64,000 bases of DNA, from the NCBI RefSeq assembly GCF_045037415.1, contig NZ_CP173438.1; one strand, given 5' to 3'. Position 1 is the stretch's first letter, and each line of letters opens with the position of its first letter. This DNA comes from Escherichia coli. GTDB lineage: Bacteria; Pseudomonadota; Gammaproteobacteria; Enterobacterales; Enterobacteriaceae. Below the pieces are notes generated by a model that did not search any database, had not been told where the DNA came from, and saw only the letters and a list, made by a program, of their open reading frames with translations. The position numbers and the translations under genes were made by a program. Positions 6,238 to 6,606 of the stretch are shown piece after piece.

Positions 6238-6504
6238 AATTTCTTGCGAAATTAGCGGCCCGTTTTGAATAAGTGTGTTCCGGAGTAATCCAGAACGCAT
6301 GCTGCTTTACATCTTTTTCAAGCCATATTGGTTAAGCAAAAAGAAGTAGAAATAATTTCCTGAGAAATTAACTCAACATTCTGAAACGGCCAGTTTTCTG
6401 AAATTACCAGAAGACCGAATACATTCATGCCTGAAGAATGGATTAGAAGAAACGAGACGGAAATAGATCTATTTATCCCTGCGGAAATAATTTCTGCTGA
6501 AATT
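6238..6504 (+). repeat. Three copies of the palindromic motif AATTTC-N4-GAAATT in the kpsM 5' leader
   Basis: Copies at 6238..6253 (spacer ttgc), 6354..6369 (ctga) and 6489..6504 (tgct); copies 2 and 3 are preceded by GAAATA giving GAAATAATTTC, copy 1 by AAAATA; spacing 116 and 135 bp. Confidence 0.6.
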
Positions 6505-6598
6505 GTTTGCGGCTATTAAAAAGGTCAAACCGTCTGACTAAATTTTATCCAGTTACAAACAAGTATTACCTCCAGTGTATTGGTAGCTGTTAAGCCAG

Positions 6599-6606
6599 GG
6601 GCGGTA
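6599..6606 (+). promoter_or_regulatory. ops element (GGCGGTAG) for RfaH-dependent antitermination upstream of kpsM
   Basis: Exact GGCGGTAG octamer 34 bp upstream of the kpsM ATG, in the position known for kps region 3. Confidence 0.7.

What the first reader, a model, noticed from the sequence alone, without database searches (positions are those of the whole stretch)
6238..6606. kpsM 5' leader carries three evenly spaced AATTTC-N4-GAAATT palindromes upstream of the ops element
The long untranslated leader of region 3 contains an exact ops octamer (GGCGGTAG) 34 bp upstream of kpsM, as expected for RfaH control. In addition there are three copies of a composite palindrome at 116 and 135 bp spacing. 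Repeated dyad sites at roughly helical-phased spacing suggest cooperative binding of a dimeric regulator; they could be the conserved elements involved in thermoregulation of kps promoters or sites for an unidentified factor.
Basis: seen in the sequence. Interest (0 to 1): 0.5.

Follow-up and report, generated by a model that had tools for sequence, protein, structure and literature searches.

The report
Periodic palindrome array in kpsM leader
The long untranslated leader in front of the E. coli capsule-export gene kpsM carries five or six copies of one 22-bp palindrome, spaced about 133 bp apart; their arms are kept by selection, so they are probably binding sites for a regulator that has not been identified.

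Summary
The three exact AATTTC-N4-GAAATT sites (6238, 6354, 6489) belong to six 22-bp dyads with consensus AATAATTTC-N4-GAAATTATT. They start at 5838, 5974, 6105, 6235, 6351 and 6486 and fill the transcribed kpsM leader, from about +53 after the P1/PR3 start to about 100 bp before ops.

Across 33 leader alleles the arms vary 2-4 times less than the rest of the leader. The 4-nt centres vary about 3 times more, yet stay GC-rich. Spacing is held at 135/131/130/(116)/135 bp.

Most genomes (roughly 1,100 of about 1,600 with this leader) lack exactly one 116-bp unit, with the junction inside the motif. The motif is absent elsewhere in the window, including PR1, and from kpsM leaders of Pantoea, Yersinia and Enterobacter.

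The adjacent, experimentally validated CRP site shows the same pattern of conserved arms and free centre. My best reading (0.4) is operator-like DNA sites for an unidentified dimeric protein acting inside the leader. Weak RNA hairpins remain a live rival.

No known consensus fits: SlyA, H-NS, IHF, CRP/FNR, LysR-type box and the MprA operator were all checked. No paper I could read describes the array.

The parts
5838..5859 (+). Palindrome copy 1, AATAATTTC-CAGT-GAAACTATT (8/9 complementary); about +53 from the P1 start
   Evidence: Across alleles the arms are conserved and the centre varies (CAGT/CAGG/CACA/CCAA).
5974..5995 (+). Palindrome copy 2, AATAATTAC-TCAC-GGAATTATT; the most degenerate arms. 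It falls inside the published 3' H-NS footprint (+141..+219) when this is mapped from a P1 start near 5785.
   Evidence: Footprint coordinates come from review PMC8960920. The mapping onto the window is my inference from PMC12360894.
6105..6126 (+). Palindrome copy 3, AATAGTTTC-TTGC-TAAACAATT. Here G-C replaces A-T at one arm position on both sides.
6235..6256 (+). Palindrome copy 4, AATAATTTC-TTGC-GAAATTAGC (first site of the finding). Its arms are invariant in every allele that has it, apart from one 1-nt deletion in a very low-coverage metagenome contig (L182).
6235..6350 (.). The 116-bp unit (copy 4 up to copy 5) that is absent from the commoner 5-copy alleles (K1 strain IHE3034, EAEC 042, BL21). 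The junction lies inside AAATAATTTC.
6351..6372 (+). Palindrome copy 5, AATAATTTC-CTGA-GAAATTAAC (second site of the finding). It is degenerate only in the most divergent allele class (L001 type, which has a 10-bp insertion).
6486..6507 (+). Palindrome copy 6, AATAATTTC-TGCT-GAAATTGTT (third site of the finding). The 6-bp arms (AATTTC/GAAATT) are invariant. It is followed by a T-run whose length differs between alleles.
5770..5775 (+). Probable -10 hexamer (TATTTT) of P1 = PR3, inside a block invariant in the alleles that cover it; start near 5785
   Evidence: Inferred from PMC12360894: CRP site at -492.5 from the ATG, P2 mutation at +245 and P1 mutation at -13 in a 5-copy allele, placed on the alignments.
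6023..6038 (+). Consensus CRP site TGTGAT-GTAA-ATCACA, which contains the weak P2 promoter's -10. This is a known element and serves here as a positive control for the signature 'arms conserved, centre free'.
   Evidence: PMC12360894
6573..6611 (+). JUMPstart element with the ops octamer GGCGGTAG at 6600-6607 (RfaH loading site)
6640..7416 (+). kpsM (ABC transporter permease), first gene of region 3

Best explanation
The three palindromes are part of an array of six 22-bp dyads (five in most strains), AATAATTTC-N4-GAAATTATT. They are placed every 130-136 bp (116 bp at one step) along the whole transcribed kpsM leader. They are functional cis-elements read through their arms.

Most likely they are operator-like DNA sites for a sequence-specific dimeric protein that binds inside the leader. 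Together with the H-NS/SlyA-type nucleoprotein complex already known there, this protein would set how much transcription started at P1 (PR3) reaches the ops site, where RfaH loads. Loss of one 116-bp unit changes the number of sites.

Shown here: the array exists, it is periodic, the arms are under purifying selection with free centres, the copy number is polymorphic, and the array is restricted to the Escherichia group 2 leader.

Inferred, not shown: that a protein rather than RNA folding reads the arms, which protein it is, and the direction of the effect on transcription.
For: - The array is far beyond chance and regularly spaced. Spacing is 135/131/130/(116)/135 in all 33 alleles; random placement gives p about 2e-5 for 6 copies and 5e-6 for 5 copies.
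- Nucleotide diversity is 0.025-0.049 in the arms, 0.092 in the rest of the leader and 0.273 in the centres. Mann-Whitney p is 2e-4 for arms vs rest and 2e-10 for arms vs centres. For the window against the most divergent allele, arms differ at 10/108 positions, the rest at 163/648 and centres at 17/24.
- The CRP site in the same leader, validated by ChIP-seq, EMSA and mutation (PMC12360894), shows the same signature: arms TGTGAT/ATCACA in 32 of 33 alleles and four different centres.
- As RNA the dyads are weak hairpins: -0.8 to -3.6 kcal/mol for five of them and -7.6 for copy 6. There are no compensatory changes among alleles.
- Published protein contacts overlap the copies. The 3' H-NS footprint (+141..+219), needed for repression at 20 C, covers copy 2 by my mapping. 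YbdO (CitR) shifts the 300-bp and 287-bp fragments upstream of kpsM that hold copies 5 (in part) and 6.
- The literature says the UTR moderates how much transcription reaches kpsM.
Against: - No binder is identified and no known consensus fits. There is no TTAN6TAA (SlyA) anywhere in the leader. The H-NS 10-mer matches only elsewhere in the leader (two sites at 2 mismatches, none within a dyad's arms). The single IHF match lies elsewhere.
- The dyad has even symmetry (T-N10-A), unlike LysR-type T-N11-A boxes. The dyad upstream of K-12 citR, CTTAA-N7-TTAAG, is absent from the leader.
- The E. coli MprA operator, CTGTCGTTACTATATCGGCTG, is unrelated.
- All copies are transcribed, so an RNA role is not excluded.
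- The 5' half is better kept than the 3' half in every copy (52/54 vs 44/54 matches to consensus). A symmetric dimer does not explain this polarity.
- Centres that are hypervariable but 59% GC are not predicted by a simple uncontacted-spacer model.
- The motif is missing from PR1, although PR1 and PR3 are co-regulated.
Confidence: 0.4

Rival explanations
1. The elements act in the RNA. Each copy forms a short AU-rich hairpin with a 4-nt loop in the 741-855-nt leader transcript. The hairpins could serve as protein-binding, processing or pause signals, or as temperature-sensitive structures that affect how much transcript survives to ops and kpsM.
For: - With the P1 start near 5785, all six copies are transcribed (plus alignments 22 and 69).
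- 83.9% of arm cells form standard pairs, against 27-53% when partners are slid.
- Several polymorphisms are A/G changes opposite U that keep a wobble pair: copy 2 has 18 UG vs 9 UA, copy 3 has 15 UA vs 15 UG.
- RNAalifold places copies 2, 5 and 6 in the consensus fold.
- The hairpins gain 2.5-4 kcal/mol at 20 C, and capsule expression is temperature dependent.
- The consistent polarity of the better-conserved 5' half fits a strand-specific element.
Against: - The hairpins are weak at 37 C: five of six are -3.6 kcal/mol or weaker, with z-scores from +0.4 to -2.2.
- No pair has a change on both sides among alleles, and shuffles equal the observed values.
- About as many variable pairs break pairing as keep it.
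- RNAalifold also folds the CRP DNA site into a hairpin, so it cannot discriminate.
- In the single-sequence minimum-energy fold only copies 2 and 6 form.
- No Rfam family matches.
Confidence: 0.22
2. The dyads are preferred nucleation or bridging points for the known nucleoid-associated regulators of this locus (H-NS with SlyA or MprA-type anti-silencers). They would be recognised through AT-rich DNA shape, and no new factor would be involved.
For: - The leader is 30-36% GC and the arms are 18% GC.
- H-NS footprints are published on both sides of the P1 start, and the downstream one overlaps copy 2.
- MprA/EmrR is required for kps transcription (17-200-fold drop in the mutant). In Salmonella it binds AT-rich DNA without a consensus and displaces H-NS at SlyA-co-activated loci.
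- Regularly spaced anchor points could favour filament or bridge formation.
Against: - Shape readers do not explain base-by-base conservation of a 9-nt arm together with a GC-rich, freely varying centre.
- The dyads do not match the SlyA or H-NS motifs or the defined MprA operator.
- PR1, which is controlled by the same proteins, has no copy.
- The review reports that direct MprA binding to PR1 or PR3 could not be shown.
Confidence: 0.18
3. The array is an evolutionary relic of an old tandem amplification of a roughly 133-bp unit and has no present function. On this view the arms look conserved because of gene conversion between copies or repair of quasi-palindromes.
For: - The regular spacing is most simply produced by tandem duplication.
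- The copies do recombine with one another: the 116-bp unit was lost with its junction inside the motif.
- Columns flanking the motif are weakly conserved between copies (8 vs 3.6 expected, p = 0.03).
- The P1-to-copy 1 and P2-to-copy 3 segments align marginally (p = 0.06).
Against: - Segments between motifs show no significant similarity, and Tandem Repeats Finder reports nothing. Any duplication is therefore old, yet the arms are still near-identical.
- Gene conversion would homogenise the centres as well, but the centres differ between copies and alleles.
- The arms evolve 2.5-4 times more slowly than the surrounding leader and than kpsM four-fold degenerate sites.
Confidence: 0.1
4. The dyads act as DNA structures. 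They would extrude as small cruciforms or non-template-strand hairpins under transcription-driven supercoiling, sensing or buffering supercoiling in the leader.
For: - The AT-rich arms surround a short centre.
- The centres are hypervariable, as expected if they are transiently single-stranded.
- The neighbouring PR1 region is known to use transcription-coupled supercoiling (abstract of PMC5738388).
Against: - Arms of 7-9 bp with mismatches are short for stable extrusion.
- Single-stranded centres should decay towards AT, but they are 59% GC.
- There is no direct evidence for this reading.
Confidence: 0.05

Closest known systems
CRP operator and P2 promoter in the same kpsM leader (EAEC 042; Microbiology 2025, PMC12360894)
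   Same: It is a palindromic site inside the transcribed leader, downstream of P1, and it moderates expression. Its evolutionary signature is the same: arms invariant, centre free.
   Different: It has a different sequence and geometry (TGTGA-N6-TCACA), occurs once, has a known binder, and has an AT-rich centre that contains a -10 hexamer.
Downstream H-NS silencing elements in long AT-rich leaders, including the 3' H-NS site of PR3 itself (Xiong-era work summarised in PMC8960920); proU and hly from my own knowledge
   Same: These are AT-rich DNA downstream of the transcription start that is needed for repression at low temperature. The PR3 site overlaps copy 2 by my mapping.
   Different: H-NS sites are defined by composition and shape. 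The dyads are defined by a specific 9-nt arm with a GC-rich centre, repeated at a fixed period of about 133 bp.
Tandem arrays of dimer-binding palindromes such as F-plasmid sopC (12 x 43-bp repeats, each with a short inverted repeat bound by SopB). This comparison is from my own knowledge and was not tested here.
   Same: The same short inverted repeat is placed periodically, each copy is suited to one dimer, and copy number can vary.
   Different: The period here is three times longer. The DNA between motifs is not repeated. The location is a transcribed leader on the chromosome, and there is no partition context.
FNR-type 5-4-5 dyads (TTGAT-N4-ATCAA). FNR is reported to bind PR3 (Ma et al. 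2018, via PMC8960920).
   Same: They share the same half-site spacing, with arms separated by 4 bp.
   Different: Only 1 of 5 arm positions agrees. The one FNR-like sequence in the leader, TTGATGGGTGTTAA at 5994, lies outside the dyads.
JUMPstart/ops leader element of RfaH-dependent operons (Rfam RF01707)
   Same: It lies in the same leader and is a conserved cis-element acting on elongation.
   Different: It is a single copy at 6573-6611 and is unrelated in sequence. The kpsM leaders fetched from Pantoea and Enterobacter carry the ops octamer but no dyads; the Yersinia leader has neither.

Membership tests
RfaH-dependent leader (JUMPstart/ops) | ops octamer GGCGGTAG within a JUMPstart element upstream of the first gene | tested here: met
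   GGCGGTAG at 6600-6607. Rfam RF01707 matches at 53.6 bits against a gathering score of 35. This holds for the leader, not for the palindromes.
SlyA binding site | TTAN6TAA (or TTAGCAAGCTAA), as given in PMC5797941 | tested here: not met
   There are no TTAN6TAA matches in 5700-6640; 1.2 are expected by chance.
H-NS high-affinity site | 10-mer TCGATAAATT (consensus recalled from Lang et al. 2007) | tested here: not met
   The scan at up to 2 mismatches found only two sites in the leader (6123 and 6542, minus strand); neither lies within a dyad's arms. By my own count from the sequence the dyads themselves have 4 or more mismatches to the 10-mer.
IHF site | WATCAANNNNTTR | tested here: not met
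   The single match, at 6207-6219, lies between copies 3 and 4 and not in a dyad.
CRP/FNR-family operators | TGTGA-N6-TCACA or TTGAT-N4-ATCAA | tested here: not met
   The only CRP match is the known site at 6023-6038. The only FNR-like match is at 5994. The dyad arms (ATTTC/GAAAT) share 1 of 5 positions with FNR half-sites (and the sequence itself).
LysR-type regulator box (candidates YbdO/CitR and LrhA) | Interrupted dyad with T-N11-A (odd spacing) | tested here: not met
   The dyads are even (T-N10-A), read directly from the sequence. The CTTAA-N7-TTAAG dyad upstream of K-12 citR has no counterpart in the leader at up to 2 mismatches. Other odd-spaced dyads in the last 300 bp, at 6396, 6422 and 6524, could equally account for the published YbdO gel shifts.
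MprA/EmrR operator | CTGTCGTTACTATATCGGCTG (E. coli emrR promoter, as quoted in PMC13053672) | tested here: not met
   It has no similarity to the dyad. A 13/18 match to the dyad in the mprA promoter (L193 435-456) overlaps only the edge of that operator.
Intrinsic terminator | GC-rich stem followed by a U-run | tested here: not met
   No terminator-like sites were found in 5450-6700. Only copy 6 in K1-type alleles has an AU-rich stem followed by T6-T8.
Structured RNA element | Pairs maintained by compensatory changes, and stability above shuffled sequence | tested here: inconclusive
   83.9% of cells are paired, but 0 pairs changed on both sides and the shuffles equal the observed value. Hairpin z-scores run from +0.4 to -3.3. 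The arms hardly vary, so the test has little power.
Tandem repeat array | Units homologous along their whole length | tested here: inconclusive
   TRF finds nothing. Pairwise tests of the segments between motifs are not significant. Anchored flank columns are weakly conserved (p = 0.03).
Dimeric-protein operator | Specific protein binding to the dyad | not testable with these tools
   Only indirect evidence is available: the conservation signature matches that of the validated CRP site, and the copies overlap published H-NS and YbdO-bound fragments.

The most novel reading that the evidence does not exclude
The kpsM leader is a copy-number-variable 'rheostat'. An array of five or six identical-arm dyads at a fixed period of about 133 bp is read by a so far unknown sequence-specific factor, either as protein on DNA or co-transcriptionally on RNA. 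This factor meters how many polymerases from P1 reach the RfaH loading site. Strains tune capsule level by gaining or losing a 116-bp unit, and the GC-rich hypervariable centres reflect a second, unexplained constraint.
Probability: 0.15. Interest if true: 0.7.

Novelty: new variant of a known kind. Interest (0 to 1): 0.5.

Why it matters
Group 2 capsules (K1, K2, K5 and others) are major virulence factors of extraintestinal E. coli. Why their region 3 promoter sits 741 bp or more from kpsM has been an open question since the 1990s. The literature says only that the UTR 'moderates' transcription and carries an H-NS site.

The array gives the leader a concrete, testable anatomy. There are five or six conserved dyads to mutate, a natural 5-copy versus 6-copy polymorphism to compare between strains, and a 22-bp bait for finding the binder. 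If a specific factor is found, it would be a PR3-specific input into capsule control and a possible anti-virulence target.

Tried and rejected
- Wrong start site at first. I placed the PR3 start at about 5899 (741 bp from the ATG in this window). PMC12360894 shows that the 741-bp figure fits the 5-copy allele. The start is therefore near 5785 here, the leader is about 855 nt, and copy 1 is transcribed rather than sitting at -51. My idea that each unit is a degenerate promoter module was dropped.
It said nothing about enterobacteria.
- The viral-contig scan gave one unrelated low-complexity repeat in a giant-virus contig.
- An IclR-like (TGGAAATNATTTCCA) or Lrp-like reading of the left part GAAAT-A-ATTTC was rejected. 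Both consensus sequences are from memory, and the positions 5' of AATAATTTC are not conserved between alleles (diversity 0.14).
- NagC/Mlc-type and LysR-type boxes were rejected on parity: those are odd-spaced and the dyad is even-spaced.
- YbdO/CitR: the dyad upstream of K-12 citR is absent from the leader.
- MprA: a 13/18 match to the dyad in its own promoter looked promising (background rate about 0.1-0.2 per kb). The published operator, however, is a different sequence next to it.
- KpsM relatives at 88-89% identity (E. marmotae, other E. coli) sit in a differently organised locus that lacks this leader. Pantoea, Yersinia and Enterobacter leaders have no copies and no comparable arrays.
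- I did not obtain a group 3 capsule leader for comparison. Hits H68 and H70 were group 1 wzi loci, and P0066 was on a short contig.
- Xue et al. 2009 and Stevens et al. 1997 are not held. I cannot exclude that they mention these repeats.

Full report
**Observation**

The pattern AATTTC-N4-GAAATT occurs exactly three times in the 64-kb window, at 6238, 6354 and 6489, against 0.02 expected. The ops octamer is at 6600-6607, inside a JUMPstart match at 6573-6611. The kpsM ATG is at 6640, which leaves 32 nt between the octamer and the ATG. The finding is therefore correct as described.

**What else is there**

A repeat search over the whole gspM-kpsM intergenic region shows that the three sites belong to a family of six, with starts at 5837, 5973, 6104, 6234, 6350 and 6485 and spacings of 136, 131, 130, 116 and 135 bp. 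With up to three mismatches to AATAATTTC-N4-GAAATTA, 13 matches were found against 1.4 expected (both strands counted). Ten of them lie in five of the six leader copies; copy 3 appears at 4 mismatches to the 22-bp pattern.

The symmetry extends to 9-4-9, with consensus AATAATTTC-N4-GAAATTATT. Seven or eight of nine positions are complementary in every copy. Outside the leader, the window has only background hits with 4-5 of 18 mismatches, mostly in AT-rich region 2 and none better near PR1.

**Position relative to known elements**

The literature puts the region 3 promoter 741 bp upstream of kpsM and reports H-NS footprints at -135..-21 and +141..+219 (review PMC8960920). A 2025 study of EAEC 042 mapped a CRP site centred at -492.5 from the ATG. 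It showed by mutation that P1 lies about 250 bp upstream of that site, and that a weak second promoter, P2, has its -10 inside the CRP site (PMC12360894).

Strain 042 carries a leader 116 bp shorter than this window. The CRP site is at 6023-6038 here. I therefore infer that P1 starts near 5785, with its -10 (TATTTT) at 5770-5775 in an invariant block.

On this mapping the leader is about 855 nt in this window and all six dyads are transcribed, at about +53, +189, +320, +450, +566 and +701. The 3' H-NS footprint covers copy 2. My first assumption, a start at 5899, was wrong and is withdrawn.

**Conservation**

The leader is present in 1,621 of 5,426 complete E. coli genomes, at 78-100% identity. 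I collected 33 distinct alleles from genomes and from a metagenome scan. The classes of position differ clearly:

| Class of position | Nucleotide diversity | Variable columns |
|---|---|---|
| Dyad arms | 0.025-0.049 | 14-22% |
| Rest of leader | 0.092 | 38% |
| 4-nt centres | 0.273 | 83% |
| kpsM four-fold degenerate sites | 0.124 | 36% |

Against the most divergent allele class, the window differs at 10/108 arm positions, 163/648 other positions and 17/24 centre positions. Fisher p is 1e-4 for arms and 6e-6 for centres, each against the rest.

The centres are not simply neutral. Their 26 distinct variants average 59% GC in a 33%-GC leader, which I cannot explain.

Spacing is held at 135/131/130/(116)/135 in every allele. 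Such regularity has p about 2e-5 (six copies) or 5e-6 (five copies) under random placement.

**Copy-number polymorphism**

K1 strain IHE3034, EAEC 042, BL21 and most other genomes lack exactly the 116 bp from copy 4 to copy 5. The junction lies inside AAATAATTTC. A junction-spanning query suggests about 1,130 genomes with the 5-copy form and about 300 with the 6-copy form among those it detects (the split by identity band is my inference).

The three most divergent allele classes all have six copies, so six is probably the ancestral number.

**Distribution**

KpsM relatives in Pantoea, Yersinia bercovieri and Enterobacter asburiae also have long leaders (550-1,440 bp). The Pantoea and Enterobacter leaders carry ops, but none has a dyad copy or a comparable array. 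E. coli and E. marmotae KpsM variants at 88-89% identity sit in a differently organised locus without this leader. The array is specific to the Escherichia group 2 leader.

**Origin**

Tandem Repeats Finder reports nothing. The segments between motifs show no significant pairwise similarity. Columns anchored on the motif are only weakly conserved between copies (p = 0.03). An old tandem amplification is plausible but not demonstrated. If it happened, only the dyads have been kept.

**DNA or RNA**

As RNA the dyads are weak. Five of them fold at -0.8 to -3.6 kcal/mol and copy 6 at -7.6 kcal/mol at 37 C. Only copies 2 and 6 form in the minimum-energy fold of the leader.

On the allele alignment, 83.9% of arm cells pair, but no pair has changed on both sides and the shuffles equal the observed value. 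Roughly as many variable pairs keep a wobble pair as lose pairing. RNAalifold places copies 2, 5 and 6 in its consensus, but it also folds the CRP DNA site into a hairpin, so it cannot discriminate.

The validated CRP site shows the same evolutionary signature as the dyads: arms in 32 of 33 alleles, four different centres. This is the main reason I favour protein binding to DNA. Against that reading, the 5' half is better conserved than the 3' half in all six copies (52/54 vs 44/54 matches to consensus).

**Who binds**

No known consensus fits.
- SlyA: TTAN6TAA is absent from the leader.
- H-NS: the dyads themselves are poor matches to the 10-mer; the only near matches in the leader lie outside the arms.
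- IHF: the single match lies between copies 3 and 4.
- CRP and FNR: matches lie elsewhere in the leader.
- LysR-type boxes have odd spacing, while the dyad is even.
- YbdO/CitR shifts the 300-bp and 287-bp fragments that hold copies 5 (in part) and 6. However, the dyad upstream of K-12 citR has no counterpart in the leader, and other odd-spaced dyads in that fragment could explain the shifts.
- MprA is required for kps transcription and acts as an anti-silencer on AT-rich DNA in Salmonella. Its defined E. coli operator is unrelated to the dyad, and direct binding to PR3 has not been shown.

None of the papers I could read describes the array. Xue et al. 2009 and Stevens et al. 1997 were not available.

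**Verdict**

This is a real, conserved, periodic and copy-number-variable array of dyads in a well-studied but poorly understood virulence leader. Its mechanism is not established.
- Operator-like DNA sites for an unidentified dimeric factor: 0.40.
- RNA hairpins: 0.22.
- Anchor points for H-NS-type proteins: 0.18.
- Non-functional relic of duplication: 0.10.
- DNA structure: 0.05.

I rate it a new variant of a known kind, with interest 0.5.

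Noticed in passing
window 6023-6038: A perfect CRP consensus site, TGTGAT-GTAA-ATCACA, lies in the leader. It is already published for EAEC 042, where its centre holds the P2 -10 hexamer TATAAA. In this window the centre reads GTAAAT, so P2 may be weaker in this allele.
   Followed up: yes
window 6411-6440 and 6608-6619: A 30-nt block, GAAGACCGAATACATTCATGCCTGAAGAAT, is invariant in the genome-derived alleles (the metagenome alleles were fetched with 27 nt of this block, so they are not independent evidence). It contains the dyad CATTC-N9-GAATG. 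Its core, CATGCCTGAAGA, recurs as CATACCTGAAGA immediately after ops. It may be a separate regulatory site, for example a LysR-type box.
   Followed up: partly
window 6142-6157 and 6287-6302: A 16-nt inverted repeat, 94% complementary (GCATGCGTTCTGGTTT / AATCCAGAACGCATGC), brackets copy 4. Its right arm lies in the 116-bp unit that 5-copy alleles lack, so this long-range pairing exists only in 6-copy leaders.
   Followed up: no
window 6499-6512: The T-run that follows copy 6 differs between alleles (TTGTTT, T6, T7, T8). With the weak upstream stem it resembles a poor intrinsic terminator of variable strength.
   Followed up: no
window 5883-5902: TATATC at 5888-5893 is invariant in all 33 alleles. 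It sits inside the palindrome CTCAG-N9-CTGAG, about 100 nt downstream of the P1 start. It could be another promoter-like or binding element.
   Followed up: no
window 6207-6219: A single match to the IHF consensus (AATCAAGTAGTTA) lies between copies 3 and 4. The literature reports no role for IHF at PR3.
   Followed up: no
window 1-5466 and 7413-24000: The annotation of Ecol_AZ146, identical to the window over 5700-6650 (the rest assumed collinear), shows glcA, a frameshifted IS4 and gspK'-gspL-yghD remnants upstream. Region 2 has CDP-glycerol glycerophosphotransferase-type genes (K2-like), followed by kpsSCUDEF on the opposite strand and then a pheV-type island with Ag43.
   Followed up: partly
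L125 (E. coli strain 1506), locus 1259-1956: In this strain an IS1 sits about 830 bp upstream of kpsM, directly next to a truncated sslE gene. It replaces the gsp genes that normally precede the leader.
   Followed up: no
L168 compared with the other 5-copy alleles (alignment A2, columns 575-600): One 5-copy allele has the left flank typical of window-type 6-copy alleles (GTGAA rather than ACAAA). This suggests either that the 116-bp unit was lost more than once or that recombination has moved the deletion between backgrounds.
   Followed up: no
L193 435-456 (K-12 mprA promoter): TACTATATC-GGCT-GAAATTAAT matches the dyad at 13 of 18 positions with the same 4-nt GC-rich centre. It abuts the published MprA operator. 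At the background rate this is probably chance (p about 0.01-0.04 after two candidate promoters were inspected).
   Followed up: partly
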